Source: Bacillota bacterium (GTDB taxonomy: Bacteria; Bacillota; Bacilli; Bacillales; Bacillaceae_I). Taken from it: a stretch of 32,000 nucleotides of DNA. Every line of letters starts with the position of its first letter. Position 1 is the stretch's first letter. The notes under the pieces were generated by a model that was not told where the DNA came from, ran no database searches, and saw only the letters and a list, made by a program, of their open reading frames with translations. The DNA is taken from positions 289,947 through 321,946 of the forward strand of contig JBNJJQ010000002.1 in assembly GCA_051750385.1 (NCBI GenBank), written 5' to 3'. Both the position numbers and the translations under genes were made by a program. Of this stretch, positions 14,292 through 30,632 are shown in pieces.

Positions 14292-14293
14292 TC

Positions 14294-15274: not shown

Positions 15275-15298
15275 TCAGTAGAACTCCTTTTTTATTTA

Positions 15299-16562: not shown

Positions 16563-16660
16563 TTTTAATTTTCCTCCCTTTTTGGAAATATGTAGTAATT
16601 CTTTATCTACTATAATTCTATTATACTAGACAACAAATTTCAATAAGAATCTACAGCATT

Positions 16661-17869
16661 TTATGACTGAATGTGGTTAAAAATATCGAACATTGGAACT
16701 AGTATTGACGTGACTATAGTCCCGACAATAATTGCCAGTAAGACAATCATTAATGGCTCTATTAAACTTTTTAATCGGTCCGTTGCGTTGTCGACTTCTT
16801 TTTCATAGAACTCGGCGATTTTATCCAGCATGACATCGAGTGAACCTGTACTTTCTCCAATGGAAATCATTTGTGTCACAAGTGGCGGGAATGCCCAGTG
16901 TGCTTTCATGGGAGTTGTTAGGGACTCCCCTTTTTCTAAAGCTCCCCTTGCATCTTCCAATACTTTCGCGATCACTTCATTTTCGGCAATTTTTTCAACG
17001 ATAGAGATTGCCTGTAAAATTGGAACGGAGCTGGATAGCAGCGAGCTGAGTGTTCTAGTCAGCCTTGCAATAGAAGCCTTTTGCAAAAGCTTTCCGAATA
17101 TAGGTAGTCGCAAAAGGAAATAGTCAAGGTAGTATTTGAACTGTTTTTGCTTTCTTGCAAGTGTTAGTCCAAGAACTACTCCACCAAAAAATAGTATGAC
17201 CTGCCACCAATATACCTGCATCCATTCACTTGAACCTAATACAAACCGCGTAATCAACGGTAGTTCTGCTCCAAAGTCGGAGAACATCGCAACAAAGGTC
17301 GGGACTACTCCGACTAGCAAGAAAATGATAACAGCAATTGCAATCACCCCTAATACAAGAGGGTAAGTCAATGCTGAAATAATTTTCTGCTTCGTTTCGT
17401 GCTGCTTTTCGAATTGTGTGGCCAAACGGTCCAGCGTATCGTCAATCGCTCCACTTGCTTCACCGGCTTTTATCATATTGACAAACATAGCAGAGAAAAT
17501 TTTAGGGTATTTGGCAGCAGCATATGAAAGGGAGTTACCTTGCCTTAACTCCTCTTCTACATCCAGAAGCGTGCGTTTGAGAATCTTGCTTTCTGTCTGA
17601 TGGGCGAGTACGTTCGTTGCTTCTACTACAGGAACGCCTGCCCTGATCAAGGTAGAGAATTGACGTAAAAATACTACAAAGTCACGCAGCTTTACAGGAT
17701 TTCCTATTGTAATTTCCTTGGTGAAAATAGATTCAGGCACCTCATCCATTTGCAGAACTCTTATTCCTTCATCCCTTAGCTTAATAAAGGCTTCTCTTCT
17801 AGAGGCACTGATGACCGCACCTTCTCTTTTTCCACTTTTATCTCTTCCAACATACTTAAATTTAGGCAT
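16661..17869 (-). CDS. pilC: Type IV pilus platform protein PilC (GspF family)
   Basis: This 402-aa protein has a duplicated T2SS-F domain architecture with three TM segments. The N-terminus MPKFKYVGRDKSGK is typical of PilC. Confidence 0.92.
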   Translation of the reverse strand: MPKFKYVGRDKSGKREGAVISASRREAFIKLRDEGIRVLQMDEVPESIFTKEITIGNPVKLRDFVVFLRQFSTLIRAGVPVVEATNVLAHQTESKILKRTLLDVEEELRQGNSLSYAAAKYPKIFSAMFVNMIKAGEASGAIDDTLDRLATQFEKQHETKQKIISALTYPLVLGVIAIAVIIFLLVGVVPTFVAMFSDFGAELPLITRFVLGSSEWMQVYWWQVILFFGGVVLGLTLARKQKQFKYYLDYFLLRLPIFGKLLQKASIARLTRTLSSLLSSSVPILQAISIVEKIAENEVIAKVLEDARGALEKGESLTTPMKAHWAFPPLVTQMISIGESTGSLDVMLDKIAEFYEKEVDNATDRLKSLIEPLMIVLLAIIVGTIVTSILVPMFDIFNHIQS

Positions 17870-18911
17870 TATAGCTGACCGACTCCTGTAAAAAACTTTC
17901 CGCTGATATTTTAGATATTTGACCAGATTGGATCATTTCTTTTATATTCATTTCCAACGTATGCATACCTTGAGCTCGACTGGTCTGCATGACGTTTTGG
18001 ATTTGATGAATCTTTTCATTTCTTATCAGATTCCCAACAGCTGAGTTATTGATAAGGATTTCTGTTGCCACTTTCCTGGATTGTTTGTCTATAGATGGAA
18101 ACAATCGTTGAGAAATTATAGCCACAAGAACAGAAGCCAATTGAATCCGGATCTGTGGCTGCTGTGGACCAGGGAAGACGTCGATTATACGGTCAATTGT
18201 TGAAGGTGCACTTGTTGTGTGCAAAGTTCCAAGGACAAGATGTCCCGTTTCTGCAGCAGTAATAGCTGTCTGGATTGTCTCTAAATCTCTCATTTCCCCA
18301 ACCAAAATCACATCCGGATCCTGACGTAAGGAAGCACGTAACCCGTTTGCAAAAGATTTTGTATCAAAGCCGACCTCTCGTTGATCAATCATACATAAAT
18401 TATGCTTATGTAAGTACTCAATCGGGTCTTCTAGTGTAATAATATGTTTTTTGCTTGTACGATTCATAAAATCGATCATGGAAGCTAGTGTCGTAGACTT
18501 ACCGCTCCCTGTTGGTCCTGTCACCAGAATAAGTCCTTGCGGCTTTTCCACCAATTTTTGAAGTATTGTTGGAAGATCCAATACTTCTAAACTTGGCACA
18601 CTAGTAGGTATAATTCGAATGGCAAGCGCAATAGAGGATCTTTGTTTGTACGCATTGACCCTGAATCTAGAAATCCCGGGCAAACTGTAGGAAAAGTCCA
18701 ACTCTCCTTTATCCTCAAACGTCGACCACATAAAATCCGGAATCATTTCCTTCGCAATTTCAAGCGTATCCTCCGGCATTAGGATGGAGTCGCCGTACCG
18801 CTTTAAATCTCCATTAATCCGAAAAACAGGTGCAACCCCAACTGACAGATGAATATCCGATGCTTTATATTCATAAGCTGCATGCAGCCAATCTTGTAGT
18901 TTATTTATCAT
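17862..18911 (-). CDS. pilT: Type IV pilus retraction ATPase PilT
   Basis: ASDIHL, Walker A GPTGSGKST, the Asp box, Walker B ILVGEMRD and the His box GHLVLGTLHT are present. At about 350 aa with no N-terminal extension, it fits PilT. Confidence 0.92.
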   Translation of the reverse strand: MINKLQDWLHAAYEYKASDIHLSVGVAPVFRINGDLKRYGDSILMPEDTLEIAKEMIPDFMWSTFEDKGELDFSYSLPGISRFRVNAYKQRSSIALAIRIIPTSVPSLEVLDLPTILQKLVEKPQGLILVTGPTGSGKSTTLASMIDFMNRTSKKHIITLEDPIEYLHKHNLCMIDQREVGFDTKSFANGLRASLRQDPDVILVGEMRDLETIQTAITAAETGHLVLGTLHTTSAPSTIDRIIDVFPGPQQPQIRIQLASVLVAIISQRLFPSIDKQSRKVATEILINNSAVGNLIRNEKIHQIQNVMQTSRAQGMHTLEMNIKEMIQSGQISKISAESFLQESVSYNA

Positions 18912-18919
18912 AGTTTCAC

Positions 18920-20587
18920 CTATTCTTGTAAGGCAACACGCAGAATTTCTTCTGTCGTGGTTAGTCCTTGTATTACTTTCATCAGTCCGTCATCGATTAG
19001 AAATACGGTATCATGTTCCGCTGCTAGTTCACGAATTTTTGAAATTGGTTGATTGTTCATAACCACTTTTCTCATTTCATCGTTGATTACCAGTAATTCA
19101 TGGATGGCAATCCGGCCTTTGTATCCAGTCATATTACATGTGCCGCATCCCTTGCCACGCGATATTTTCTCAATGGTTAAGCCTCTTTTCGCAAAAATTT
19201 CTCTCTCACGGACAGTCGGCTCATCCTGCTTCATGCAATCCCGGCACACTTTCCGTACTAATCGTTGAGCAATTACACCATTTACAGAAGAAGCCACAAG
19301 AAAAGGTTCCACTTTCATATCTATTAGTCTTGTAACAGTACTGATCGAATCATTTGTATGAAGTGTACTTAATACGAGATGTCCAGTAAGTGACGCTCGT
19401 ATCGCTACTTCTGCCGTTTCTTTGTCCCGGATCTCCCCTACCATGATGATGTTTGGATCTTGGCGGAGAATAGCTCTGAGCCCCTTGGCAAATGACATAC
19501 CGACGTTTGTGTTCACCTGAATCTGATTGATGCCTTCAAGCTGGTATTCCACAGGGTCTTCCACTGTGATGATATTCACTTCTTCACTATTCAAATGGTT
19601 CAATGCTGCATATAAAGTGGATGATTTCCCTGAACCGGTTGGTCCTGTAATTAGAATAATGCCTGTTGGCTTGGTGATAAGCTCAATAAATCTCCCATAG
19701 TTCTTCGGGTTAAATCCCAATTGAGATAAATCATTTAATGTACTGCTCATATCCAATATACGCATTACCACTTTTTCCCCGTACACCGTCGGAAGAGTGG
19801 ACACACGGACATCCACTGGGTGATAATCAATATTTGTCTTGATTCGGCCGTCCTGAGGTACACGATGCTCTGTGATATCCATATTCCCAAGGATTTTAAT
19901 TCTTGCTATCAGGACATTTTGAGTATGCTTCGGTAAAGTCCTTTCGGTTTTCAAAACTCCATCAACACGATATCTTACGACAACTTTTGTTTCCTGAGGA
20001 TCGATATGTACGTCACTCGCACGTTGTTGCACAGCATTTTGGAGGATCTGATTGACTAAACGGACAACCGGCGAGTCATCTTCCGTAATCCTTTCATCCT
20101 CGATTTTTACCGAGGATACAGGCTCCAGAATATCCATAAACTCATCTATGGCATCAGTTACCTCATAGTATTTGTTGATGGAACGCAGAATATCATCCTT
20201 TGTTGCAATGACAGGTTCTATTTCAAAGCCTGTTGAAAGGCGTAAATCGTCTATCGAAAAATAGTCCATTGGATCTGCCATCGCCACATACAATTTATCC
20301 TGTTCTTTTTTTATCGGAATCAATAAATTCCGCTTTGCAAAATCTTTTGAAATGACATGCATTAGTTTTTCATCAAACGGGTACCGGTACAAACTTACAT
20401 GAGGTATTCCTAACTGGAATTCCAGCACTTCAATCAATTGTTGTTCAGTAATGTACCCTTTTTGAAGTAATGCATCCCCAAGCTTTTGACCCTTTATCTT
20501 TTCTTCCAATGTCAAGTGAAGCTGTTCCGATGTTATAATACCTGCATCAACTAATAGGTCACCTAATCTTTTCCGTGTATCGTTCAT
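18920..20587 (-). CDS. pilB: Type IV pilus assembly ATPase PilB (GspE family) with N-terminal T2SSE_N/MshEN-like domain
   Basis: Walker A GPTGSGKSS, Walker B IMVGEIRD and GHLVLSTLHT are present, as is the tetra-Cys motif CRDC...CGTC. The N-terminus contains RLGDLLVDAGIITSEQL...KLGDALLQKGYITEQQL. ATG 20587 is preferred because AAAGGA lies 8 nt upstream. ATG 20596 abuts the RBS. Confidence 0.93.
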   Translation of the reverse strand: MNDTRKRLGDLLVDAGIITSEQLHLTLEEKIKGQKLGDALLQKGYITEQQLIEVLEFQLGIPHVSLYRYPFDEKLMHVISKDFAKRNLLIPIKKEQDKLYVAMADPMDYFSIDDLRLSTGFEIEPVIATKDDILRSINKYYEVTDAIDEFMDILEPVSSVKIEDERITEDDSPVVRLVNQILQNAVQQRASDVHIDPQETKVVVRYRVDGVLKTERTLPKHTQNVLIARIKILGNMDITEHRVPQDGRIKTNIDYHPVDVRVSTLPTVYGEKVVMRILDMSSTLNDLSQLGFNPKNYGRFIELITKPTGIILITGPTGSGKSSTLYAALNHLNSEEVNIITVEDPVEYQLEGINQIQVNTNVGMSFAKGLRAILRQDPNIIMVGEIRDKETAEVAIRASLTGHLVLSTLHTNDSISTVTRLIDMKVEPFLVASSVNGVIAQRLVRKVCRDCMKQDEPTVREREIFAKRGLTIEKISRGKGCGTCNMTGYKGRIAIHELLVINDEMRKVVMNNQPISKIRELAAEHDTVFLIDDGLMKVIQGLTTTEEILRVALQE

Positions 20588-20620
20588 TGTGGTCATCCTT
20601 TACGTTGCAAATTAGTTGGT

Positions 20621-22021
20621 CTATTTCCCTCCAGGATATGAAGGGTTGTTTCCAGCATTATTGCCAGTACCATTACTGTTACCTGTACCGGAATTTGATG
20701 TGTTGCCAGTCGTACCGGTGTTTTCTGTGTTAGATCCACCGTTGTTATTTGATCCAGTATTGTTGCTATTGCCGTTGTTTGTACCATTGTTCGATCCGCT
20801 ATTGGTACCTCCAGTATTATTGCTACCGGAATTAGAATCTGGCGCAGTTACTATTGGATTATTTGGACTCTCAGGCATGGTTGGAACTTCTGGCTTTATT
20901 AAGCTATGAACCTCGACCCTATGTACTGGAGCATAAAAATCCTGTGCAATAAGAGTTGTATCCAATATTTCTCCATCACTTCCTAAAGCATTCCTCACAA
21001 TAACAGCATATTCCCCTGACTTGCCCGCTTCCTTCACTTGTTTTTGATTCCTTTGCACAATTGGTGAATATTGAACAATCGTCTTTGGCTCAAAGGTTTC
21101 TATTTTCTCTTCGATAATTTCGTACGAAAAGGCAAGTGGTTGGCCTGTAATGCCTCCTGAAATACTATTTATAGCTATTGATACATCTATCGTCAGGACA
21201 TGATTGTTGGGATTAAATAATTGAAGATCCATTATTCCTTTGCTATACGCTGCTTCATAACCTGCTTCCGCATATTCTGGTAATTCTTTGGATATATGCC
21301 GCTCAACTATTTCCACATTCGTTGGAAGAGCTAACTGATATAATAGAGTTGCCAATATCCCACCGCTCTCTTGGCTCAAAGTTATGCCCTCTTGAATCAA
21401 CCAGTCTTCCAACGAGAAGGTAGAGCCGGGCTCAAGATTGATAACTGATATTTCTCCCATTTCTACTAAAATATCTGCGTCCACCATCAGATTTTCTTCA
21501 TGCAAAACTTCATCTGTACTAGAAACTTCAAAAAAATAATCCAATATGGGAAAATTCGAGTCTTCTTCTATTAATTTCGAAGCAATGGAAACTATGTCAA
21601 TTTTTAGTTTTTCCATGTAAACTTCTGTATTTATTTCTGAGTTGCCTGTCAACTGTTCAATGGTTTTCAAAAATACAGAATCAGGAAGAGTGACAAATAA
21701 AGTATTTCCATTTCCATCAATTGCTTCTTCAACAGATTTTTCAATATGAAACTCAAATTCTTTTTTATCTATGGAGGCGATTTCTCCGGACCATTCCAAA
21801 TAAATCATGCCCTTTTCTCTCCATGTTTCAACAGCCAACTCCAACTCATTTATTGCTTCAGCCCTGGACTTATTCTCTACCAGCTCCGTACCGATTAATG
21901 TTTCGCTTTGGAAATTTTTCGTTAATATCTTATCAGCCACAAAGGTTGGACCAAATTGTCCAGTTAGAAATACAAGTAGAGTTCCTATTAACAGTACACC
22001 GAAAAGCTTTAAACCTTGCAT
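20621..22021 (-). CDS. Membrane-anchored VanW-like + G5-like domain protein with Asn/Gly/Ser/Thr-rich C-terminal tail (no Cys)
   Basis: It has an N-terminal TM segment. The segment PGSTFSL...SGGILATLLYQLALPTNVEIVERHISK...DLQLFNPNNHVLTI parallels the VanW family pattern (PGxTFSF...GGGxCQxSSTLY...EIxERxxHS...DxxFxN), recalled from memory. The following segment (KQVKEAGKSGEYAVIVRN...HRVEV) looks G5-like. ATG 22021 is preceded by GGGGGA. Only 24 nt separate its stop from pilB. Confidence 0.65.
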   Translation of the reverse strand: MQGLKLFGVLLIGTLLVFLTGQFGPTFVADKILTKNFQSETLIGTELVENKSRAEAINELELAVETWREKGMIYLEWSGEIASIDKKEFEFHIEKSVEEAIDGNGNTLFVTLPDSVFLKTIEQLTGNSEINTEVYMEKLKIDIVSIASKLIEEDSNFPILDYFFEVSSTDEVLHEENLMVDADILVEMGEISVINLEPGSTFSLEDWLIQEGITLSQESGGILATLLYQLALPTNVEIVERHISKELPEYAEAGYEAAYSKGIMDLQLFNPNNHVLTIDVSIAINSISGGITGQPLAFSYEIIEEKIETFEPKTIVQYSPIVQRNQKQVKEAGKSGEYAVIVRNALGSDGEILDTTLIAQDFYAPVHRVEVHSLIKPEVPTMPESPNNPIVTAPDSNSGSNNTGGTNSGSNNGTNNGNSNNTGSNNNGGSNTENTGTTGNTSNSGTGNSNGTGNNAGNNPSYPGGK

Positions 22022-22060
22022 TTTATATCCCCCAATCACGGCTTCTTTCTAATCTATCGC

Positions 22061-22438
22061 CTACTTTAACGTCAAATCATCAGATAGTGCTTCTAATTTC
22101 TTCTCATTTTTCTCAGGATTGGAAGATTTGAGAAAATAAGAATCATTTTCTTCAATTCCGGTTTCAACATTTTGTTTTCTTTTCAATACATTTTTATTGG
22201 TATGGTACATAAAGGGACGCTTCTGAAGAAATATCGTAGCAAGTAAAAGCAGAAGTAGGATGAGTAATAGTGAATGCCAAGGAGTAAATAGCTGCTGAAT
22301 GGAAGAACCTATTATGCTTGCAAATAGAATTATAGTTGCTACCGTTATTTTACCTTTTAAACTAAATCCAAATGAAAATTTAAAAAGAATTGCTAAAAAA
22401 ATAAAAAAAACAAGTAAAACCATTAAGTATGTAAGCAA
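22061..22438 (-). CDS. Small hypothetical membrane protein (about 3 TM) at the head of the pilB-side operon
   Basis: This is a 125-aa ORF with hydrophobic segments and a polar, charged C-terminal half. Translation signals are weak: a TTG start after GTGGTG, or ATG 22423 with no SD. It fills the only gap between the divergent control region and the VanW-like gene. Confidence 0.4.
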   Translation of the reverse strand: MLTYLMVLLVFFIFLAILFKFSFGFSLKGKITVATIILFASIIGSSIQQLFTPWHSLLLILLLLLLATIFLQKRPFMYHTNKNVLKRKQNVETGIEENDSYFLKSSNPEKNEKKLEALSDDLTLK

Positions 22439-22539: not shown

Positions 22540-23247
22540 ATGAAAAAACTTTTTGAAGAAGAAAGAGGCTTTACATTATTAGAAGTATTAATATCGATGA
22601 CCATCCTTTCTGTCGTAGTAATTGGAATGATGAGCTTCTTTGAGAACAGTTACAGTTACGTCAAAGAAAATGAATCAAAAACAGTCGCGACCCAGGTAGC
22701 CAGAAATGTAATGAACTATGTTGAAAAACAGGATTTCTCTAAAATGGAAGGTTATTTAATATACGAGAGAATTCCCCTTGAAAATAAATACATACTCGAA
22801 TTGGATTTCACACATTGTATACAACCAGTCACCATATCAACAAAAAGTCTCCCTTCCGTTACTGAACGAACTAATATTGACAATGTATTATTGTTTGATG
22901 ATCAAGCACGTTGCCAATCCATCTTAAAGCCAACCATTAATAATGTAACCTATGATGGAGACAAAAAAGTACAAATTTACATTATGAAATATAATAATAC
23001 TGAAGAAATACTTAGATTGAAAGTTCTTATAGAACAGAATAATCATGTCATTAATGAATTACCAGATGGGATAAAAGAATTTATTTTAAACTATGATGAA
23101 GATCTTGATAAGTTTAAACCGAGTGAATTTTCAGAAAAAGAATTCATGGATGAGCATCTGCTCCGAGTATTCACCGTTTTGAACTGGAATGAAGACCGGG
23201 AAGAAGTAATGATTCAAGGAGTCCTATCTCATGAAACTATTCGATAG
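22540..23247 (+). CDS. Minor pilin (prepilin-type N-terminal cleavage/methylation domain)
   Basis: MKKLFEEERG followed by FTLLEVLISMTILSVVVIG is a canonical class III signal (Gly-1, Phe+1, Glu+5). The RBS AGGAG is present. Confidence 0.8.
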   Translation: MKKLFEEERGFTLLEVLISMTILSVVVIGMMSFFENSYSYVKENESKTVATQVARNVMNYVEKQDFSKMEGYLIYERIPLENKYILELDFTHCIQPVTISTKSLPSVTERTNIDNVLLFDDQARCQSILKPTINNVTYDGDKKVQIYIMKYNNTEEILRLKVLIEQNNHVINELPDGIKEFILNYDEDLDKFKPSEFSEKEFMDEHLLRVFTVLNWNEDREEVMIQGVLSHETIR

Positions 23248-23890
23248 ATTAAAAGATGAACAAGGTGTTACTCTTTATGAATTGCTGGCAGTGCTAGTTA
23301 TTAGCGGAGTTGTGTTGAGCTCCATTTACGGAGTCTTTATAACCGGGGTAAACCTATATAAAAAAATTGGAATTGAGAGTCAACTTAAAGAAGAGGCAGA
23401 TATTATTGTTGCCACAGTTTTGAACGAGTTTTACGCCTATTCTCCTGATGATGTGGAATATAATGCAAATAGTAATGAGTTGATATTAGCCAAGTTCAGA
23501 CAGGTCGAGATTAGCGATAAAGACTTTGTAACATCTACCTTTGACAAAGATGAGATGAACCGTAAGGCTATTATTCGCATCAACGACTCTCTTTCATCGG
23601 TCGGTAAAGATGTTTTCCTTGATACGAAAGAAATACCAGAAGACAGTGAACCAGATTTGATTGAAAAAACATTAAAGATTAATAATGAAAAATACCTTTT
23701 GTTACCTGTGCAAGATAGCACGGGCAGCGATTTGCCTATCATCGATTTTACCTGTACCTCCCATTCAAAATCACAGTGCAATGGGGGCATTGTTTCTTTT
23801 CATTTTCAAATCGCACATGAAAACTATAGCGATAAAGCCAATAGATTGTATGTGGAACCGATAGAATTTTATAGTCAATTCGGCTTTTAA
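23231..23890 (+). CDS. Minor pilin (prepilin-type N-terminal domain, Val+1)
   Basis: MKLFDRLKDEQG is followed by VTLYELLAVLVISGVVL, with Gly-1 and Glu+5. The RBS AAGGAG is present. It overlaps the upstream gene by 17 nt. Confidence 0.75.
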   Translation: MKLFDRLKDEQGVTLYELLAVLVISGVVLSSIYGVFITGVNLYKKIGIESQLKEEADIIVATVLNEFYAYSPDDVEYNANSNELILAKFRQVEISDKDFVTSTFDKDEMNRKAIIRINDSLSSVGKDVFLDTKEIPEDSEPDLIEKTLKINNEKYLLLPVQDSTGSDLPIIDFTCTSHSKSQCNGGIVSFHFQIAHENYSDKANRLYVEPIEFYSQFGF

Positions 23891-23908: not shown

Positions 23909-25636
23909 ATGAATGAAAAAGGATCCAGTTTATTAGTAGTACTTATTACAGTCTCGATTTTTATGATACTTGGAGTTTCCATATTAACCGTGGCACTAGG
24001 TGGAGCTTTGAGAACACAAATCCAGTTAGATCGCTATGAAAACATTTATGAAGGAAAAGAACAACTGGATTTTGTTATTTCTAGATTTAAAGAAGAAGTC
24101 ATAAATATCCCCCTCAATACAGAAGATCTTCCTCATGAATATCAAAATCGGTTGGACCAAGCTTTAAATAGTTTAGCCGCTTACGAAAACTTCAATGCCG
24201 AGGATATGACAGAAACCTATGTCGCTGATAAAAGTGAATTATTCACAAGAGTATACGAGTTTTCAATTGTGGCTGGTGAAGGGAATGCGAAAAAAACAAT
24301 AAAAAAACAAGTCATATTATCACCTGCTCCAAGTTTCCTGGATTATGCCCTCGGCTCCTTTGGTGAAGGTGATGACGAAGGATTATTACTGGTAAACGGG
24401 TCACCAAATGTGGATGGGGATGTCATTGCCAACAATCTGCATATTAAAAATGAAGCTGAGTTTATTGATCAGGATGGAGAGAATACTGCCTCTACACCAT
24501 TCCCCGCAATTAGCGGAAACATTAATATTCAAAAGATGTTGAGCCTTTGGGATACCAAGACCTTACAACCTATAAAATTTACAGCTGAACATTTGCAAAC
24601 CGATCAGATTCTTTCCAGCTTCTTTTATAACTTCATCAAGCCTGATATCTATTCAAGGTCTGAAGATTTTGTAGATGTTAACTTTGATCAAACATATCTT
24701 GATAAACTAAATGAACTTCTAGTTTTGCCGAGCAGCTCTGTTACTTCTGATGAACTGTTGGATGACAATTCATTAAATGAAATCCGAAACAAGATAGCTC
24801 AACAATTACCTGAAAGTAATTTACCTCCTGATTTGATTGAAAACGATATTTTATTGGATGCAGGGACAATTAATAGTATCCCCGGGCGAATCGTCTACCA
24901 TGATTCAGTTCAGGTATACAGTGCTATCGAGCAAATTAACATCAATAAGCCAATGGTGATAAATGGAGATTTAACTCTCACTTCCGGACTAAACAACCCA
25001 ATTTCCATTACCCAGCCACTGACCGTAATTGGGGACCTTACTATTAATATTACAGACACTCCAATTGATATTAGTGGGACTGTCATTGTATTCGGCGACC
25101 TGATAATAAATGGTAACGAAGAGGCGGTTGGAAGCGGTGCAGAGAACGATACGATAAAATTTGATTCGACCATCTATACATGGGGAAGCAGCTATATATC
25201 TAATACAAATATTGAAGGTATTGACCAAGAAAAACAACTGGTTCTCTTTTCAAAAGGCGAATTGACTATTACCAGAATAAATGAATTCCGTAGATTTTCC
25301 ATGGAACAAGATAACCAAAATATCTATGATCTAGGTAATGAAACCATTCCTTTAAAAGCATTCTTTTATACAGAAAATAATGCAACTTTATACGGGGTAG
25401 GTTCCATGTTTCACATTAATGGAGGATTATTTGCCAAGAAAACGTTAGAGATAAATGCCATACGAGGCAATATCAATCGAAGTAATACACTAACACCTCT
25501 TTCAGATCAATTTCAACTTAATAAGAAAACTCGTTTTCAAATTGTACATGATCCGAATGTTCTTGTCAGTCAGGTGTCAAGGTTGCCTGTGGCTGATCGT
25601 CTAAGAGTTATCGTAAGTGAAACTTCCATTAAATAA
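23909..25636 (+). CDS. Large PilX/GspK/PilK-like minor pilin lacking Glu+5, with a repetitive beta-rich C-terminal region
   Basis: MNEKG is followed by SSLLVVLITVSIFMILGVSILTVALGG, a hydrophobic PilX_N-like N-terminus with Val at +5. It is the third gene of the minor-pilin operon. The RBS GAGGTG is present. GD(L/V)xI-type repeats recur (NGDLTLT, VIGDLTINIT, VFGDLIING). Confidence 0.6.
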   Translation: MNEKGSSLLVVLITVSIFMILGVSILTVALGGALRTQIQLDRYENIYEGKEQLDFVISRFKEEVINIPLNTEDLPHEYQNRLDQALNSLAAYENFNAEDMTETYVADKSELFTRVYEFSIVAGEGNAKKTIKKQVILSPAPSFLDYALGSFGEGDDEGLLLVNGSPNVDGDVIANNLHIKNEAEFIDQDGENTASTPFPAISGNINIQKMLSLWDTKTLQPIKFTAEHLQTDQILSSFFYNFIKPDIYSRSEDFVDVNFDQTYLDKLNELLVLPSSSVTSDELLDDNSLNEIRNKIAQQLPESNLPPDLIENDILLDAGTINSIPGRIVYHDSVQVYSAIEQININKPMVINGDLTLTSGLNNPISITQPLTVIGDLTINITDTPIDISGTVIVFGDLIINGNEEAVGSGAENDTIKFDSTIYTWGSSYISNTNIEGIDQEKQLVLFSKGELTITRINEFRRFSMEQDNQNIYDLGNETIPLKAFFYTENNATLYGVGSMFHINGGLFAKKTLEINAIRGNINRSNTLTPLSDQFQLNKKTRFQIVHDPNVLVSQVSRLPVADRLRVIVSETSIK

Positions 25637-25640
25637 TAGG

Positions 25641-25680
25641 AAAGAGGACAACCCTTTTGTATACTTGGGTTGTCCTCTCT
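25641..25680. terminator. Bidirectional terminator between the convergent minor-pilin operon and the vWA gene
   Basis: A 12-bp stem AGAGGACAACCC (25643..25654) pairs with GGGTTGTCCTCT (25667..25678). Both sides are flanked by T-rich sequence on the relevant strand. Confidence 0.7.
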
Positions 25681-25683
25681 TTA

Positions 25684-28635
25684 TTACCACCTGTAATTAT
25701 TTCCTGGGTTACTTATATCGTCTTCACCATTTCCAATAATGACCATTGTGGTTGCACGTATATTTCTGTCTTCTTTTGATGTTGCAGTAACAAATACAAC
25801 TCCTGGGGAAATACCTCTGCCTTTACCGTTTTGATCGATATAAAATTTGTCAGGCAAATCAACGGACCACTCAACCTCTATCTTATTTTTTAGCTGAGGA
25901 GGGTCAAATCTTAATTGGCCTTGTAGACTATTCAACGGTTGATTTACTTTTACGTAATAATAAGGTTTATGGAACGACATTGTATAGTTTGGAAAATCCA
26001 AAATTTTCATTTGGGCTTGCTCACTTATTTGGGACCCATTGATTGAAGCTGTTATTGATACTTCTCCTGTTTTTTTTGCCGTGACGACTCCATTGTTGTT
26101 AACAGAAGCGATACTGTTATCACTGGAATTCCAATTTATTAATACATCAGATAGTGTATCTGTCGTCTCTAAAATCGCTTCAATGGTCTGAGTATCTCCA
26201 ATATACATTTCATTTGAATAATTTAATGATAGATCAGATATTCCATTGAAGTTTATAATCAATTCATCTTCAAAAGAATTTCGAATGAACCCACCTGAAG
26301 CTTTCACTTGGAATTTGGATGTTCCAAGATCATTCAATTCAGCAATAATATCCTCAGGGTTTATCGTTCTCCAGTTAGAATAATTCGTTCTATTTGGCGT
26401 TTTTGTTCGTACCTCATAGACAGCTGTTCCTCCAGTCACGAATTGGTTAAAAAATATTTTCACAGCTTGATTTACGATATACTGCCCATTTTCTACTGGA
26501 AAAACAACCTCATCACTACTACTCAATACTACAGCAACAGTAGGAATTAAGGGTAAAAATACATTACTAATTCCATGGAATTTGATTATTATACTACTTT
26601 TCTCTTCATCGAACTCCATGAATTCCACAGGAATTAATATCGGGTTTCCCCCAGCATCTTTTAAGGTGGTAGAAGCTAACAGTTGTCCAGAATCTCGGAC
26701 ATATTTACTGATATTTCCGGACTGATTACCCCTATACTCTACAGTGGGCTGGACATCAAGATCAATTAATTTAATGACCATTTCTACCAATTCATTAAAC
26801 CGTGAACTAACATTTGCTTTTAATTGTGCATTTGGTCTAGACGAATCCTTAAATTCAATTGATGGGTCAGGTAAAGCTTGTGCGTTTAGACTATGAATAC
26901 CCCGTAATTCAAGTGAGGTTTGCAGTTGTTCTTCAGAAAATATTAAGTTCCCATTTTTTGTTTCATAAGTTAATTGTTTTATAGGAATAAGAATCTCTTT
27001 CGAACCATCTGGGAAGATTGTTTCAGTCATACCAGATCCTAGTTTAGAACTTAACCCCGCTGGAATCCTCTGTCTGAGTTGAACATCACTTAAATTCCCT
27101 TTGCTTCCTGAAGGCAACTTTCCATAAGGTTTAATAGTATAGATAATGTTGAAAGTGTCTTTATTTTCAGTCATAATATTAGATTTTTGCAATTTAATCG
27201 TATTATCTTTAATTGGTGCCGTAGTTGAGAACTGCATGTCCAGTTCGAAAGATGGTGCCACTTGGTTTTGTACAGAAACCTTTATCTCTTCTTTATAGAC
27301 CATAATCTGGTCAATACCTTCTATATCTTTATATTTTAATTTCACTTCAAAAAAATAGTCTCCATTAGAGTTAAACTCTATTGGAAGATTCGGCACAGAT
27401 ACCACACCAGGACCCACACCTACTTCATACTTAACATTTCCATTAGCTGGAGTAACAATAGCATACTTGATACCATTTCGAGTTTCCACTTTAATTCCAT
27501 CAGAGCCTTCTACCCTTACACCACTTGGAATTTTAACTTCAAGGGATACTTCGGAAAGAGATGGTGTTTCTATTTCTCTCACTAATGATTCAAATATTTC
27601 ATTCAGATTACTGCCGGATGCTATCCTTGCCATTGATATATTATTACTCGTTTTACTTGCTAATTTATCAAGATATGTTTTGCTGGCCTCACCGAATCCT
27701 ACTGGATAAAGAATCGTATCTCCATTCCTTATTAAACTGGAAGTATCTTCTGCGTGATTTTCTACATATGCTTTAGCATGATTTGAAAAAACAATGGTGT
27801 TATTGTTATGTTTAAAACTTCTTTTCGATATTCCTGAACTTCCATTAGAATATACAATAAACTCGGTAGTGATATTCTCTTTGTGGTTTTTTAATAAATC
27901 ATATGAATAATCTTCATACTTATTGTCACAAAAAATCCACCAGCAATCTTGAATTTCTTTTTGATATTTTCCTCTTGGTATGTCCTTAGTTTTCAGGACT
28001 GTTGGTTCACCATCTGTTAAAAAAATTATAACTTGGTCTCTATTTTCATCTGAATTATTGCTTAAAATTTCTTTCGCCTTAATCAATGAGTCGCTATAGT
28101 TTGTTCCAGTTTCTAAACTTCCTTCAGGTGCCACAATTTCTTTAACAACTTCAGCAATTTCATTTACGTTTTTCGTCAAAGCATTCCCATCAAAGTTACT
28201 TACTACAGCATTACTGTTAAACTCAACTAACCCGAAACGATCCTTGTTGACTCTATTGGCATTTGCCTCACTGAAAATCGTAGCAGCAGTTTGCATTGCC
28301 TCCTTAGCACGGTCTAACCTGGAAGTCTTTTTATCTATTTCAAAATTCATGGATGCTGATTTATCAAAAACAAAAACCACATCCAAAGGCTTCCTTGGAT
28401 TTTCGGTAAGCATTCCGTTCCGCATCACTTCGAAATTCAGGGATGTTCTAGCTATGTTCTGACTTCCTTCTTTTTGCAATATCAGTTCTTTTCTTGCCGG
28501 TTCCACTTTATTTATTGATAATGAGAGTTGGTCTTGGTTAGTTGTGTTATTGGTGAGGGCTATTGTTGGGGCTAATCCAGAAAGCATAATATGTATGATA
28601 AGTATTCCTATCACAAAACTCCTTACGTTCTTCAT
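25684..28635 (-). CDS. Large secreted vWA (MIDAS) domain protein with two C-terminal Big_2 Ig-like domains
   Basis: A Sec-type signal peptide is present (MKNVRSFVIGILIIHIMLSGLAPTIALT). The vWA domain has a complete MIDAS (VVFVFDKSASM = DxSxS; GTNYS; FLTDGEPT). There is a long beta-rich middle region. Two Big_2-like segments lie near the C-terminus (e.g. INWNSSDNSIASVNNNGVVTAKKTGEVSITA). No LPXTG motif and no prepilin motif are present. Confidence 0.85.
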   Translation of the reverse strand: MKNVRSFVIGILIIHIMLSGLAPTIALTNNTTNQDQLSLSINKVEPARKELILQKEGSQNIARTSLNFEVMRNGMLTENPRKPLDVVFVFDKSASMNFEIDKKTSRLDRAKEAMQTAATIFSEANANRVNKDRFGLVEFNSNAVVSNFDGNALTKNVNEIAEVVKEIVAPEGSLETGTNYSDSLIKAKEILSNNSDENRDQVIIFLTDGEPTVLKTKDIPRGKYQKEIQDCWWIFCDNKYEDYSYDLLKNHKENITTEFIVYSNGSSGISKRSFKHNNNTIVFSNHAKAYVENHAEDTSSLIRNGDTILYPVGFGEASKTYLDKLASKTSNNISMARIASGSNLNEIFESLVREIETPSLSEVSLEVKIPSGVRVEGSDGIKVETRNGIKYAIVTPANGNVKYEVGVGPGVVSVPNLPIEFNSNGDYFFEVKLKYKDIEGIDQIMVYKEEIKVSVQNQVAPSFELDMQFSTTAPIKDNTIKLQKSNIMTENKDTFNIIYTIKPYGKLPSGSKGNLSDVQLRQRIPAGLSSKLGSGMTETIFPDGSKEILIPIKQLTYETKNGNLIFSEEQLQTSLELRGIHSLNAQALPDPSIEFKDSSRPNAQLKANVSSRFNELVEMVIKLIDLDVQPTVEYRGNQSGNISKYVRDSGQLLASTTLKDAGGNPILIPVEFMEFDEEKSSIIIKFHGISNVFLPLIPTVAVVLSSSDEVVFPVENGQYIVNQAVKIFFNQFVTGGTAVYEVRTKTPNRTNYSNWRTINPEDIIAELNDLGTSKFQVKASGGFIRNSFEDELIINFNGISDLSLNYSNEMYIGDTQTIEAILETTDTLSDVLINWNSSDNSIASVNNNGVVTAKKTGEVSITASINGSQISEQAQMKILDFPNYTMSFHKPYYYVKVNQPLNSLQGQLRFDPPQLKNKIEVEWSVDLPDKFYIDQNGKGRGISPGVVFVTATSKEDRNIRATTMVIIGNGEDDISNPGNNYRW

Positions 28636-28676
28636 CTTAACCTACCCTTCTAGTTATATTTTCCTATATATCTACA

Positions 28677-28712
28677 ATTATATCAGAACATTTTTCAAAA
28701 AATACTATTTTA
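28677..28712 (-). promoter_or_regulatory. Candidate promoter of the vWA gene (extended -10)
   Basis: The minus strand reads TGA-TATAAT (28685..28677), about 40 nt upstream of ATG 28635, in an AT-rich intergenic region that follows a terminator. No convincing -35 element is present. Confidence 0.3.
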
Positions 28713-28766
28713 TATGTAAATATTGTTTCTTTCTACAATATTTTCAACTTTGATTTCTTCAAAGCT

Positions 28767-28810
28767 GAAAAAACATAAAAGGAGCTTTCCGATAAATGGA
28801 AAGCTCCTTC
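28767..28810 (-). terminator. Rho-independent terminator downstream of the GGDEF gene
   Basis: The stem AAGGAGCTTTCC (28779..28790) pairs with GGAAAGCTCCTT (28798..28809). On the minus strand it is followed by TTTTATGTTTTTT. Confidence 0.75.
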
Positions 28811-28813
28811 TTT

Positions 28814-30550
28814 TTACGACGTCTTCCTATACTCAGCCACCTTATTCCGCCCGGCCTGCTTCGCACCGACATACATCGCACGGTCTGCATGGCGGATAAG
28901 ATCCAGTGTATCCTCTGCATCATCCGGTGCTGTCGCAAAGCCGATGCTTGCTGTAACTTTGACAAGCTGAACGGTATGGGAATCCCGGATGTGCTGCTTC
29001 AACGCGAAGGACCTGTTGGCAAGGTTGACTCTGATTCTTTCTGCAAGCTCAAAGCATTTGCCTCTGTCCATATCTGGAAGTAGGATGACAAATTCCTCTC
29101 CCCCGTATCTTGCAACAGTGCCAGCTTCCCCCACGATCCCTACAAGTCGATCTGCCACTTGCTTCAGTATTTCATTACCGCTTTGGTGGCCGTATATATC
29201 ATTTATTTTCTTGAAGTGATCCAAATCTAGAAGAATCAGGGATAATGATGAAAGATCCCCTTTGTCCAAGCTGGCATACTCTTTTTCCAGTACACTTTCA
29301 AAATAGCGATAATTATAAAGTTTCGTCAGGGCACAACGTTCACTTTTTCGCTTTGTCTCTTGATAATGGCGGGCCTTTTCCATTGCTACCCCGAAGTACG
29401 AGGCCAGGATATCCGCAATCATCAGCTGGGATTTATCATACGACCTTTTAGTGGTGCTTGCTAGTACGACGATTCCCTCAATCTTTTGATTTCGAGATAC
29501 CGGGACACACATGACACTTTGAAGGGAAGGATGCAGATGCGTGTTTGCAAAATGCTTCCATTCCTTTCTCGTAAGATAGCATTGGCTTTTTCCCCGTTTT
29601 AATATATAGGACAAAAGTTCCTCGTTATCTATATTCATTTCGGTATTGACTGCCACAAAATTCTGGTTGTCGATCACGCGTAGAATCTTCAAGGTACTTT
29701 CTCCATTTACATCTACAATTGCTGCATAATCCACAGGAAACAGGGTCGATACCTTGTCCAGGAAGACATCAAGCACCCCTTGAGTATCCAAGCGCTCGGT
29801 TAATTGGTGTCCGATGCCGGCTGCCTGCTGAAGGTAGTTATTCACTTTCTGACTGGAATGATAGAGCTGCAGAATCAAGGTTAATACAACAAAAGGCAGT
29901 CCTACATAGAATGTGGCAACGATTCCTAACTGTTCATACAGGACATATAGACTCAGACCAACAGGCAATACAATTATGCTTGTAATGGCTTCCCATTTGG
30001 TATCAGTGGTGATAAATTTGCTTTCACGTTTATAAATGAACACCTGAATCATATACAAGGCGATGGAGTTCAGGGTGAAATACATAAGTTCATGGGAAAG
30101 GATCGGCACGATGACACCTGGCTGCAGAAGCTTTGTGTCACCATGTCCTCCGCCAAGTGCATAATAGACAAATCCGCAAATGAGCGAAATGGTGGAAAAC
30201 ATTAATAGATTGATAGGGATTCTAAGAAGATTGTCCTTGCTCACTCTTATTTTAAGCATCAGCGCTATGACGGAGATGAGGGTAAGGACCATTTCCGCAA
30301 ATAGGCCAAATGAGAGCAGGATGGCAAGTGACACTCCCTGAGTCAGAAACAGCGGAACCTCTCCCACCACGATCGGGATGAGGGCAAGTATGATCAGCAA
30401 GATCGCAAACCCTACAAGATGAAGCAAGGGCAGTTCCTCTATCGCAATAGGAGAAAGCTGATAACCTACCCACAGATTCAATGGAAAAAATAAAAAGAAG
30501 CATGTCCAAATCATCGCTTTCGTAGTCCCATTTACCGCACGAGCTACCAT
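28814..30550 (-). CDS. Membrane-bound diguanylate cyclase (multi-TM sensor + GAF-like + GGDEF)
   Basis: The GGDEF domain carries DLDHFKKINDIYGH and ARYGGEEFVILLP (intact A-site). About 8 predicted TM helices lie at the N-terminus, and a GAF-like segment sits in the middle. ATG 30550 is preceded by AGGGAGGGG. The ORF-track start at 30613 lies inside the promoter. Confidence 0.9.
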   Translation of the reverse strand: MVARAVNGTTKAMIWTCFFLFFPLNLWVGYQLSPIAIEELPLLHLVGFAILLIILALIPIVVGEVPLFLTQGVSLAILLSFGLFAEMVLTLISVIALMLKIRVSKDNLLRIPINLLMFSTISLICGFVYYALGGGHGDTKLLQPGVIVPILSHELMYFTLNSIALYMIQVFIYKRESKFITTDTKWEAITSIIVLPVGLSLYVLYEQLGIVATFYVGLPFVVLTLILQLYHSSQKVNNYLQQAAGIGHQLTERLDTQGVLDVFLDKVSTLFPVDYAAIVDVNGESTLKILRVIDNQNFVAVNTEMNIDNEELLSYILKRGKSQCYLTRKEWKHFANTHLHPSLQSVMCVPVSRNQKIEGIVVLASTTKRSYDKSQLMIADILASYFGVAMEKARHYQETKRKSERCALTKLYNYRYFESVLEKEYASLDKGDLSSLSLILLDLDHFKKINDIYGHQSGNEILKQVADRLVGIVGEAGTVARYGGEEFVILLPDMDRGKCFELAERIRVNLANRSFALKQHIRDSHTVQLVKVTASIGFATAPDDAEDTLDLIRHADRAMYVGAKQAGRNKVAEYRKTS

Positions 30551-30603
30551 ACTAACCCCTCCCTTCCTACCTAGTTTTCTCAATAAAATATTGCAATAAC
30601 GTA

Positions 30604-30632
30604 ATTTTATCAAATTTTCTAAACTTTGTCAC
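30604..30632 (-). promoter_or_regulatory. Sigma-A type promoter of the GGDEF gene
   Basis: The minus strand reads GTGACA (30632..30627), a 17-nt spacer, then TGA-TAAAAT (extended -10, hexamer at 30609..30604). Confidence 0.55.

What the first reader, a model, noticed from the sequence alone, without database searches (positions are those of the whole stretch)
25684..28635. 983-aa secreted vWA(MIDAS)/Big_2 protein convergent with the minor pilins: candidate PilY1-like adhesin
The protein has a Sec signal peptide and a vWA domain with all MIDAS residues visible (DKSAS, GTNYS, LTDGEP). It also has a CWWIFC Cys pair, a long beta-rich region and two C-terminal Big_2 Ig-like domains. It has no LPXTG sorting signal, no C-terminal membrane anchor, no obvious cell-wall-binding repeats and no prepilin motif, so how it is retained on the cell is unexplained. 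vWA modules recur as pilus tip adhesins. Examples are PilY1-family proteins of Gram-negative T4P, a vWA-module minor pilin in Streptococcus sanguinis T4P, and the tip pilins of sortase pili. Its location is suggestive. It shares a bidirectional terminator with the minor-pilin operon and has its own promoter region. It may therefore dock on the minor-pilin tip complex, which would be a Gram-positive analogue of PilY1 delivered by Sec rather than being a modular pilin.
Basis: partly seen in the sequence, partly recalled or inferred. Interest (0 to 1): 0.62.

Follow-up and report, generated by a model that had tools for sequence, protein, structure and literature searches.

The report
Secreted adhesin partnered with pilus-tip pilins
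This gene encodes a secreted, metal-dependent adhesion protein that always travels with the three tip subunits of a Gram-positive type IV pilus and ends in a conserved tryptophan tail, so it is probably the separate pilus-tip adhesin that Gram-positive bacteria were thought to lack.

Summary
ORF 25684-28635(-) encodes a 983-aa Sec-type secreted protein with these parts:
- a vWA domain with an invariant MIDAS;
- four beta-sandwich stalk domains;
- two Big_2 domains;
- a disordered tail.

It has no LPXTG, no prepilin motif and no membrane anchor.

New evidence ties it to the pilus:
- In 56 of 60 Bacillales species its homologue lies adjacent and convergent to the three minor-pilin genes (median gap 45 bp).
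- Within the genus, the three pilins plus this gene behave as one AT-rich, fast-diverging cassette (9 of 21 genomes). The other 12 genomes carry a large prepilin-type protein instead, and no genome has both or neither.
- Proteins in this slot have unrelated heads (vWA, DUF5057, Big_2 only). Nearly all end in an acidic/Gly-rich linker followed by [R/K][W/Y]-COOH; the terminal residue is W in 49 of 60. The genome background is 0.7%.
- The closest folds are sortase-pilus tip adhesins (SpaC, PitA, RrgA).

Best reading (about 0.55): a non-homologous Gram-positive analogue of PilC/PilY1 that docks by its tail on the minor-pilin tip complex. It is not a PilY1 family member, because it has no beta-propeller. 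Docking itself is untested.

The scan noted a related DUF5057 protein on other DNA (e1-2633337).

The parts
25684..28635 (-). Gene for the 983-aa secreted vWA/Big_2 protein (P0001)
   Evidence: ORF and translation. Pfam VWA and Big_2. AlphaFold2 pLDDT 86.2, pTM 0.72.
28558..28635 (-). Codons 1-26: Sec-type signal peptide (MKNVR, hydrophobic core, TIA|LT)
   Evidence: The only strongly hydrophobic window is at residues 4-27. It is modelled as helix 3-20 followed by a low-confidence stretch at 17-31. Orthologues have VSA|, ALA| and AKA| at the same place. The cleavage site is inferred from sequence only.
27568..28386 (-). Codons 84-356: vWA domain with a complete MIDAS and an inserted beta 'arm' region (213-283, includes CWWIFC)
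   Evidence: Pfam. D91, S93, S95, T178 and D208 are invariant. Secondary structure. Foldseek matches to SpaC, PitA, RrgA and GBS104.
26248..27561 (-). Codons 359-796: about four beta-sandwich 'stalk' domains with no Pfam family
   Evidence: All-beta, pLDDT mostly 84-95. No Pfam match.
25732..26241 (-). Codons 799-968: two Big_2 Ig-like domains. This is the part shared with the vWA-less 514-540-aa proteins that occupy the same slot in congeners.
   Evidence: Pfam Big_2 with two stretches. Matches of residues 789-983 to the slot proteins of G001, G006 and G011.
25687..25731 (-). Codons 969-983: disordered acidic/Gly/Asn-rich tail GNGEDDISNPGNNYRW ending in the invariant Trp983. Candidate docking peptide.
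   Evidence: pLDDT below 50 for 975-983. W983 is invariant in A1 and A2. Tail tallies.
25634..25686 (.). Bidirectional hairpin between the two convergent transcription units
   Evidence: -23.7 and -24.0 kcal/mol, z-scores -5.0 and -6.2.
28636..28813 (-). AT-rich upstream spacer of the gene, preceded by the terminator of the GGDEF gene (28777-28811)
   Evidence: Sequence. Terminator scan. Promoter-like hexamers at 28747-28707 are not above chance.
22540..23247 (+). mp1, minor pilin (235 aa, class III signal)
   Evidence: Pfam N_methyl E 2.7e-07. It co-varies with the vWA gene.
23231..23890 (+). mp2, minor pilin (219 aa)
   Evidence: Pfam N_methyl E 0.0012. Conserved synteny.
23909..25636 (+). 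mp3, 575-aa Glu5-less GspK/PilK-position pilin with a beta-solenoid insert. Proposed docking partner.
   Evidence: AlphaFold2 pLDDT 84.3, long N-terminal helix 3-64, final strand 566-574. Best PDB fold match is Thermus ComZ 6qvi, E 5.6e-05. Its stop lies 47 bp from the stop of the vWA gene.
12898..22438 (-). Core machinery operon: orf125, VanW/G5 protein, pilB, pilT, pilC, pilA, pilD, pilM, pilN, pilO
   Evidence: ORFs. Pfam T2SSE+MshEN, VanW and N_methyl. PilB is 82-93% identical in the 20 other genomes of the genus searched.
28814..30613 (-). Membrane GAF-GGDEF diguanylate cyclase, neighbour of the cassette
   Evidence: Pfam GGDEF E 1.5e-39. It lies between folC and the vWA gene in many, but not all, of the 60 Bacillales loci.

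Best explanation
The protein is a non-pilin adhesin of the type IV pilus (T4P): a functional counterpart of PilC/PilY1 built from different parts.

Proposed steps:
1. The Sec pathway exports it and signal peptidase I cleaves it near Ala26 (inferred from sequence).
2. Outside the membrane it folds into a MIDAS-bearing vWA head with inserted arms, on a rod of about six Ig-like domains (modelled).
3. Its disordered acidic tail, ending in Arg-Trp-COOH, binds the initiation/tip complex formed by the three minor pilins encoded tail-to-tail with it. The most likely site is the large PilK-position pilin mp3 or the mp2-mp3 interface (inferred).
4. PilB-driven polymerisation of PilA under that complex carries the adhesin through the wall to the pilus tip (inferred).
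5. The MIDAS head binds an acidic ligand on a surface, and PilT retraction pulls on it (inferred).

The head is exchangeable. Relatives in the same slot carry one or two vWA domains, DUF5057 or an unknown head, while the Ig-like base and the tail stay constant. The protein looks accessory (an adhesin) rather than obligatory for assembly, for two reasons. mp3 appears to end in a strand of its own, and a few loci with mp3 have no such partner.
For: Synteny.
- The order folC-(GGDEF)-vWA gene, then convergent mp3-mp2-mp1, then VanW-pilB, is seen in 56 of 60 Bacillales species from more than 20 genera. The median gap between the two stop codons is 45 bp.

Nested co-occurrence in 41 relatives.
- PilB is present in all 41 and mp3 in 16.
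- A secreted W-tailed protein sits next to mp3 in 14 of those 16.
- No full-length homologue was found in the 25 genomes without mp3.

Cassette behaviour.
- Against the closest relative G014, PilB, PilT, GGDEF and FolC are 93-95% identical. mp1, mp2 and mp3 are 62, 56 and 58% identical, and the vWA protein 49%.
- GC content is 30-37% in the cassette against 41-46% in the flanks.

Mutual exclusivity in the genus.
- Nine of 21 genomes carry mp1-3 plus a W-tailed protein.
- The other 12 carry a 412-527-aa prepilin-type protein instead.
- No genome has both or neither.

Tail.
- The terminal residue is W in 49 and Y in 7 of 60 species.
- In an independent 50%-identity clustered library, 29 of 36 family-like representatives end in W and 1 in Y. 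Of 114 unrelated multi-Big_2 hits, 2 end in W.
- Only 22 of 2983 ORFs (0.74%) in this genome end in W, and no other has this layout.
- Slot proteins with other heads keep the tail.
- Tandem paralogues all keep it.
- In a sample anchored on mp3 rather than on vWA, 18 of 28 loci have a convergent ORF ending in [R/K/F][W/Y].
- The tail is disordered in the monomer model.

Fold.
- The best PDB matches are the pilus-tip adhesins SpaC (E 5.7e-18), PitA, RrgA and GBS104.

Precedent.
- The last ~10 residues of PilC/PilY1, which include a conserved Trp, dock on the PilK/PilX minor pilin. They are needed for tip retention and function (PMC13711793, PMC13533445).
Against: - There is no direct evidence of binding, of tip location or of expression.
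- The tail differs from the PilY1 tail. Only the last two residues are conserved, the rest is polar and rich in Gly and Pro, so a ten-residue beta-strand is unlikely.
- mp3 has a conserved C-terminal strand of its own (566-574) and resembles ComZ. The trans-strand 'licensing' mechanism therefore may not apply.
- Some lineages have other tails (KLKK[L/M/F], NNL[K/R/N]).
- Two mp3-bearing genomes of the 16 lack a W-tailed partner.
- A folded protein of about 105 kDa must cross a thick wall.
- Related genomes are not independent samples.
Confidence: 0.55

Rival explanations
1. It is cargo rather than a passenger. In this reading the protein is a Sec-exported substrate that the pilus machinery pushes through the peptidoglycan, working like a Gram-positive type II secretion system. 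The protein is then released or loosely surface-bound, and the tail serves as the recognition signal for the pseudopilus tip.
For: In Clostridium perfringens, secretion of the 70-kDa vWA protein BsaC depends on the pilin PilA3 and on PilB2, PilC1, PilD and PilMNO (PMC11580942). The protein here has a Sec signal and no anchor. Co-variation with the minor pilins would also be expected if the tip complex recognises its cargo.
Against: BsaC is not encoded in the pil locus, and its secretion did not need the minor pilins cpe2279 and cpe2280. Here the linkage is specifically to the minor pilins. The locus has PilT, and so encodes a retractile pilus. The fold is that of pilus-tip adhesins. Mutual exclusivity with a large prepilin-type protein fits a structural tip role better.
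Confidence: 0.2
2. It is mainly an assembly factor. In this reading the tail supplies in trans the last beta-strand of the PilK-like pilin mp3 and so licenses pilus assembly, as shown for PilC/PilY1. Adhesion would be secondary.
For: The mechanism is shown in Neisseria, Acinetobacter and Kingella (PMC13533445, PMC13711793). The tail is conserved and the genes are tightly linked to the minor pilins.
Against: The mp3 model ends in its own conserved strand. Its nearest fold is ComZ, where, from my own recollection of that structure, the solenoid is an insert in the pilin sheet. Only two tail residues are conserved. Some loci with mp3 have no partner.
Confidence: 0.12
3. It is an independent secreted adhesin or matrix protein that merely lies in a recombination-prone island next to the pilus genes, with no physical link to the pilus.
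For: It is monocistronic, with terminators on both sides. vWA/Big_2 proteins are common surface proteins: 10578 library hits at E<=0.001.
Against: Adjacency is kept in 56 of 60 species across many genera, down to 23% identity. The gene is gained and lost together with mp1-3. The tail is shared by non-homologous heads in the same slot.
Confidence: 0.08

Closest known systems
PilC/PilY1 tip adhesins of diderm type IVa pili (Neisseria and Kingella PilC1/2; P. aeruginosa, M. xanthus and A. baylyi PilY1)
   Same: Both are non-pilin, Sec-exported, large and modular, with exchangeable N-terminal heads (vWA in P. aeruginosa PilY1). Both are genetically coupled to the PilV/W/X-type minor pilins. Both have a conserved extreme C-terminal tail containing Trp (PMC8179133, PMC13711793, PMC13533445).
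   Different: This protein has no C-terminal beta-propeller (IPR008707/PF05567), which defines that family. The carrier here is a pair of Big_2 domains. The tail motif is [R/K][W/Y] at the very end after a polar linker, not W-R-E followed by hydrophobic residues. The host has a single membrane. The gene is convergent to the minor-pilin operon rather than inside it.
MshQ of the Vibrio cholerae MSHA pilus
   Same: Both are large non-PilY1 proteins encoded next to the PilIJK homologues. MshQ is predicted to dock by its extreme C-terminus on the PilK homologue (PMC13533445).
   Different: No sequence or domain relation was tested or seen. MshQ belongs to a diderm system.
Sortase-pilus tip adhesins SpaC, PitA, RrgA and GBS104
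   Same: These are the best structural matches: a vWA head with inserted arms on Ig-like stalk domains, and MIDAS-dependent adhesion.
   Different: This protein has no LPXTG sorting signal, and no sortase or sortase-type pilin was recognised among the ORFs of 100 aa or more in the window. Sequence similarity is marginal (E 0.007 to the GBS104 fragment). The gene is linked to a type IV pilus.
Modular type IV pilins of Streptococcus sanguinis (PilB with a vWA module, PilC with a lectin module)
   Same: A vWA module is presented by a Gram-positive type IV pilus for adhesion (PMC8179133).
   Different: In those proteins the module is fused to a pilin with a class III signal. This protein has a Sec signal and no pilin module. 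In this genus the two designs appear as alternatives.
Tapirins of Caldicellulosiruptor
   Same: [quoted passage not shown]
   Different: They have a beta-helix cellulose-binding fold and no vWA domain. That preprint proposes the N-terminal part as the element that associates with the cell surface. No tail was compared here.
BsaC (CPE0517) of Clostridium perfringens
   Same: It is a secreted vWA protein whose export depends on type IV pilus proteins (PMC11580942).
   Different: It is encoded in a sipW-bsaA-bsaB matrix operon, not with minor pilins. It is independent of the minor pilins tested. No sequence comparison was made here.

Membership tests
vWA domain proteins with MIDAS (PF00092/PF13519) | Profile match above the gathering score | tested here: met
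   VWA_2 53.2 bits (cut-off 27) and VWA 48.5 bits (cut-off 23.8).
vWA domain proteins with MIDAS (PF00092/PF13519) | MIDAS residues DxSxS, Thr and Asp | tested here: met
   D91, S93, S95, T178 and D208 are present and invariant in 39 sequences.
Big_2 Ig-like domain (PF02368) | Profile match above the gathering score | tested here: met
   46.1 bits (cut-off 22.8), two stretches. Two beta-sandwiches at 799-968.
PilC/PilY1 family | C-terminal beta-propeller domain (IPR008707/PF05567), common to all members (PMC8179133) | tested here: not met
   No such Pfam hit at E<=0.1. The C-terminal half is modelled as serial beta-sandwiches. No PilY1 structure appears among the top 50 fold matches.
PilC/PilY1 family | Non-pilin protein exported by Sec and genetically linked to the core minor pilins | tested here: met
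   Signal peptide present and no prepilin motif. Adjacent to mp1-3 in 56 of 60 species.
PilC/PilY1 family | Conserved C-terminal tail (Trp, charged residues, then hydrophobic residues) that adds a strand to PilK/PilX | tested here: inconclusive
   A conserved tail exists but has a different motif: a polar linker plus [R/K][W/Y]-COOH. Binding could not be modelled.
Sortase-assembled pilus tip adhesins (RrgA/SpaC/GBS104/PitA) | vWA head with arms on Ig-like (Cna-type) stalk domains | tested here: met
   Foldseek E 5.7e-18 to 2e-11 against 6m48, 7w6b, 2ww8 and 3txa. Global TM scores are low (0.18-0.23), as expected for flexible multi-domain rods.
Sortase-assembled pilus tip adhesins (RrgA/SpaC/GBS104/PitA) | C-terminal LPXTG sorting signal with a hydrophobic stretch and a basic tail | tested here: not met
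   No LPXTG-like motif and no hydrophobic C-terminal segment.
Type IV (modular) pilins | Class III signal peptide / N-terminal methylation motif | tested here: not met
   No N_methyl hit and no G|(F/M)xxxE motif. mp1, mp2 and PilA do have it.
Adventurous-gliding adhesin CglB (NF033757) | Profile match above the NCBIfam cut-off | tested here: not met
   18.7 bits against a cut-off of 200. Only generic vWA similarity.
T4P-dependent secreted vWA protein (BsaC type) | Secretion depends on pilins and pilus machinery; encoded with sipW and tasA-like genes | not testable with these tools
   The operon context differs. Dependence on the machinery needs experiments.

The most novel reading that the evidence does not exclude
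Type IV pili of Bacilli may use a portable plug-and-socket system. Any Sec-exported module that carries an Ig-like base and a short C-terminal tag would be loaded onto the matching minor-pilin tip complex. The tag would be a polar linker plus [R/K][W/Y]-COOH, with other tag classes such as KLKK[L/M/F] in Brevibacillus-like lineages. Whole cassettes (three pilins plus adhesin) would be swapped between close relatives as alternatives to cassettes in which the effector is fused to a pilin. The docking mode would be a terminal dipeptide in a pocket. That differs from the ten-residue strand addition of PilC/PilY1, so it would be an independent invention of tip loading.
Probability: 0.35. Interest if true: 0.78.

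Novelty: new variant of a known kind. Interest (0 to 1): 0.66.

Why it matters
Separate (non-pilin) pilus-tip adhesins are established in bacteria with two membranes. For Gram-positive type IV pili, the well-characterised adhesins in the papers read here are modules fused to pilins (S. sanguinis).

A widespread family of separately secreted, tail-tagged adhesins in Bacillales (Geobacillus, Anoxybacillus, Rossellomorea, Neobacillus, Sutcliffiella and others) would have several consequences:
- It would show that loading an adhesin onto the tip by its C-terminus arose, or persisted, on both sides of the bacterial tree with unrelated carriers.
- It would give a two-residue handle (Arg-Trp at the very end) that makes the docking question directly testable.
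- It would explain why the minor-pilin region is the hypervariable part of these loci.
- It could provide a natural tag for displaying proteins on Gram-positive pili.

None of the papers I searched describes this protein. Imam et al. 2011, who first reported a Bacillus pil operon (strain NRRL B-14911), do not mention a vWA gene.

Tried and rejected
Things tried that led nowhere:
- Complex modelling of the tail with mp1-3: only single chains of the window's own proteins can be folded, so it was not attempted.
- NCBIfam gave only sub-threshold hits (CglB, 18.7 bits against a cut-off of 200).
- A PDB sequence search gave only marginal vWA hits (ITIH4 E 0.0015, GBS104 fragment E 0.007).

Ideas considered and rejected:
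- Covalent wall attachment by the neighbouring VanW-like protein acting as an L,D-transpeptidase on a C-terminal Lys, as for Braun's lipoprotein. Three points speak against it. The penultimate residue is Arg far more often than Lys (43 against 16). The VanW gene stays in genomes that lack the cassette. The VanW-like protein has no cysteine (translation).
- Non-covalent wall binding by WxL, LysM, SLH or GW modules: none was found.
- Auto-inhibition of the MIDAS by the acidic tail: the tail is also kept by slot proteins that have no vWA domain.
- The CWWIFC disulphide as a family feature: it is not conserved.
- The promoter scan is uninformative: 27 sites found against 25 expected.
- I did not attempt a statistical co-variation test between tail class and mp3 columns, because tail classes follow clades.
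Full report
**1. What is in the window**

ORF 25684-28635 on the minus strand encodes 983 residues. Pfam finds a vWA domain (85-213, E about 1e-12 to 5e-14) and two Big_2 stretches. NCBIfam gives nothing above its cut-offs.

There is no LPXTG, prepilin or WxL motif. The only strongly hydrophobic stretch is the N-terminal signal.

The window is a Sutcliffiella-type Bacillaceae chromosome; the named hits are S. horikoshii and Bacillus sp. RO2 and THAF10. The gene order is:
- folC, then a GAF-GGDEF cyclase, then this gene, all on the minus strand;
- mp1 (235 aa), mp2 (219 aa) and mp3 (575 aa) on the plus strand, convergent with this gene;
- orf125, a VanW/G5 protein, pilB, pilT, pilC, pilA, pilD, pilM, pilN and pilO on the minus strand.

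The vWA gene is monocistronic. A terminator follows the cyclase gene. A 47-bp spacer with a strong bidirectional hairpin separates its stop codon from that of mp3.

**2. Structure**

I built a 39-sequence alignment (A2, down to 22% identity) and ran AlphaFold2 on it. The model is confident, with pLDDT 86.2 and pTM 0.72. It shows:
- a signal helix;
- a vWA domain (84-356) interrupted by beta 'arms' (213-283);
- about four beta-sandwich domains (359-796);
- two Big_2 domains (799-968);
- a disordered tail (969-983; pLDDT below 50 for 975-983).

The MIDAS residues are invariant in A2. The CWWIFC pair is not conserved.

Foldseek against the PDB puts the tip adhesins of sortase pili first: SpaC 6m48 (E 5.7e-18), PitA 7w6b, RrgA 2ww8 and GBS104 3txa. 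At sequence level there is no close solved relative. So the body is an adhesin of the Gram-positive pilus-tip type, but it lacks the sorting signal of that family.

**3. Linkage to the minor pilins**

*Relatives sample (41 genomes).* PilB is found in all 41, and is at least 82% identical in the 20 other genomes of the genus. mp3 is found in 16. Full-length homologues of the vWA protein are found in 9, always next to mp3 and convergent with it.

Five more mp3-bearing genomes have a different secreted protein in the same slot:
- a 514-540-aa protein that shares only the C-terminal Big_2 part (G001, G006, G011);
- a 1327-aa DUF5057 protein with four Big_2 stretches (G025);
- two tandem vWA proteins of 685 and 783 aa (G038).

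*Species-level scan.* A scan of GTDB genomes returned 60 Bacillales species from more than 20 genera. They include Anoxybacillus, Geobacillus, Parageobacillus, Aeribacillus, Rossellomorea, Neobacillus, Cytobacillus, Robertmurraya, Niallia, Metabacillus, Priestia flexa, Schinkia, Brevibacillus and Aneurinibacillus. In 56 of the 60 the homologue is adjacent and convergent to mp3-mp2-mp1, with a median gap of 45 bp. The other four are contig ends, broken genes or larger gaps.

*Homologues outside Bacillales.* These match the vWA domain only and show no pilus genes nearby.

**4. Cassette behaviour**

Against the closest relative G014, the conserved proteins PilB, PilT, the cyclase and FolC are 93-95% identical. 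In contrast:
- mp1, mp2 and mp3 are 62, 56 and 58% identical;
- PilA is 58% and the VanW protein 64%;
- the vWA protein is 49% identical.

In G001 and G011 the flanking FolC and cyclase are 93-96% identical. There mp3 is only about 41% identical, and the slot holds the 514-aa protein. The cassette has 30-37% GC against 41-46% around it.

Three congeners first inspected (G019, G013, G002) have neither mp1-3 nor the vWA gene between the cyclase gene and orf125. G002 and G013 instead carry another pilin set at a different site. It consists of a 161-166-aa pilin, a 425-469-aa prepilin-type protein and a 289-319-aa Glu5-less pilin.

I searched all 21 genomes of the genus with the 425-aa protein. 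It, or a 412-527-aa relative, occurs in exactly the 12 genomes that lack mp1-3. It occurs in none of the 9 genomes that have them. Some of these hits are weak (E 1e-12 to 1e-14, N-terminal part only), and in G019 the set lies elsewhere on the chromosome. The window's genome has no trace of this second set.

This pattern fits two interchangeable designs for the pilus tip. In one the effector is a separate protein, and in the other it is part of a large pilin.

**5. The tail**

All 14 slot proteins in the first sample end in Trp, after a polar, acidic or Gly-rich linker.

| Sample | Terminal residue |
|---|---|
| 60 Bacillales species | W in 49, Y in 7 (DKY in the 1379-aa Robertmurraya/Niallia/Cytobacillus type), other in 4 (two are broken genes) |
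| 72 distinct tails | position -1: W 57, Y 15; position -2: R 43, K 16, E 6; position -3: G 28, D 13, Y 9, N 8 |
| 28 usable loci from a class-wide sample anchored on mp3 | 18 have a convergent ORF ending in [R/K/F][W/Y] within 800 bp |
| 36 family-like representatives in an independent 50%-identity clustered library | W in 29, Y in 1 |
| 114 multi-Big_2 hits in the same library | W in 2, Y in 2 |
| ORFs of at least 200 aa in the window's genome | W in 22 of 2983 (0.74%); no other combines a signal peptide with such a linker |

The linker preceding the last two residues is dominated by G, D, N, E and S. In the class-wide sample, mp3 was present in 75 of 251 Bacilli genomes.

Tandem paralogues (two or three per locus in Schinkia, a Bacillales MAG and G038) all keep a ...E/Q-W end. 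This recalls PilC1/PilC2 and the three PilY1 proteins of Myxococcus.

The remaining family members carry other recurring ends: KLKK[L/M/F], and NNL[K/R/N] in Brevibacillus-like lineages. Related genomes are not independent samples, so I give counts and no P values.

**6. Comparison with what is known**

Two 2026 papers show that the last ~10 residues of PilC/PilY1 dock on the PilK/PilX minor pilin by beta-strand addition. These residues hold a conserved Trp followed by charged and then hydrophobic residues. They are needed for tip retention, and partly for assembly. MshQ is predicted to behave in the same way. T2SS GspK, B. subtilis ComGG and Caulobacter CpaL supply the strand in cis (PMC13711793, PMC13533445). 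Neither paper treats the pil-type pili of Bacillales.

All PilC/PilY1 proteins share a C-terminal beta-propeller (PMC8179133), which is absent here. This protein is therefore not a member of that family. I propose that it works like one.

The analogy has two limits. First, only two tail residues are conserved and the rest is a poor strand former. Second, the mp3 model (pLDDT 84.3) ends in its own conserved strand (566-574). Its best fold match is the Thermus tip pilin ComZ. The mp3 sheet is therefore probably completed in cis.

For these reasons I favour an accessory tip adhesin held by a short terminal plug over an obligatory licensing factor.

Two further Gram-positive precedents are relevant:
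- the tapirins of Caldicellulosiruptor, encoded next to the pilus locus and needed for attachment;
- BsaC of C. perfringens, a vWA protein whose secretion needs pilus proteins. BsaC is the basis of the main rival reading.

**7. Verdict**

A functional link to the minor pilins is very likely (about 0.9). Display at the pilus tip through the tail is the best single mechanism (about 0.55), but it has not been shown. The case is a new variant of a known kind. The DUF5057 slot protein of G025, which ends in ...ARW, connects the two observations.

Noticed in passing
L143:4745-7556 (G002) and L144:5008-7867 (G013); empty site in the window at 4232-4745: The 12 congeners that lack the mp1-3/vWA cassette carry a large prepilin-type relative instead. 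In the two inspected (G002, G013) it belongs to a second minor-pilin set (161-166-aa pilin, 425-469-aa prepilin-type protein, 289-319-aa Glu5-less pilin) inserted between the M23-peptidase-like gene and the glpQ-like gene. The two sets are mutually exclusive in the 21 genomes of the genus.
   Followed up: partly
window 4356-4472 and 4544-4665: Two arrays of 21-bp tandem repeats (about 5.6 and 4.6-4.9 copies) flank a terminator-like element. By eye they are roughly inverted relative to each other. They lie in the 514-bp spacer that is the empty site of the alternative pilin cassette.
   Followed up: no
L058, L121, L133, L134, L135, L137; P0024, P0036, P0051, P0081, P0094: Brevibacillus-like and related lineages have 1300-1880-aa slot proteins that end in another recurring tail class (KLKK[L/M/F], NNL[K/R/N]) instead of [R/K][W/Y].
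   Followed up: no
L085:7854-12137, L087:5830-11962, L027:3425-8085: Two or three tandem vWA paralogues of 650-780 aa occupy the slot in Schinkia, a Bacillales MAG and G038. Each has its own ...E/Q-W tail. They may be alternative tip adhesins.
   Followed up: no
window 23909-25636: mp3 is modelled as a pilin helix, a beta-solenoid insert and a terminal strand. Its best PDB match is the competence-associated tip pilin ComZ of Thermus (6qvi), which raises the question of a role for this pilus in DNA uptake.
   Followed up: partly
window 20621-22039: The VanW/G5 protein upstream of pilB has no cysteine and a long N/G/S/T-rich tail. It diverges as fast as the pilins (64% against 93% for PilB in G014) but is kept in genomes without the cassette.
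   Followed up: no
L024:5085-9068 (G025): The slot holds a 1327-aa protein with DUF5057 and four Big_2 stretches, no vWA domain, ending in ...DSARW. It is followed by a 291-aa membrane-anchored ORF before mp3.
   Followed up: partly
L127, L129, L138, L140-L142: In one family of Bacilli a gene of about 220 aa lies between mp3 and the Y-tailed (…DDRY) convergent protein, giving a gap of about 710 bp.
   Followed up: no
L083:8001-9992 and L086:8073-9931: The slot gene looks broken in Bacillus methanolicus DE0196 (663 aa instead of about 1379) and in Parageobacillus caldoxylosilyticus NBRC 107762 (two fragments of about 300 aa).
   Followed up: no
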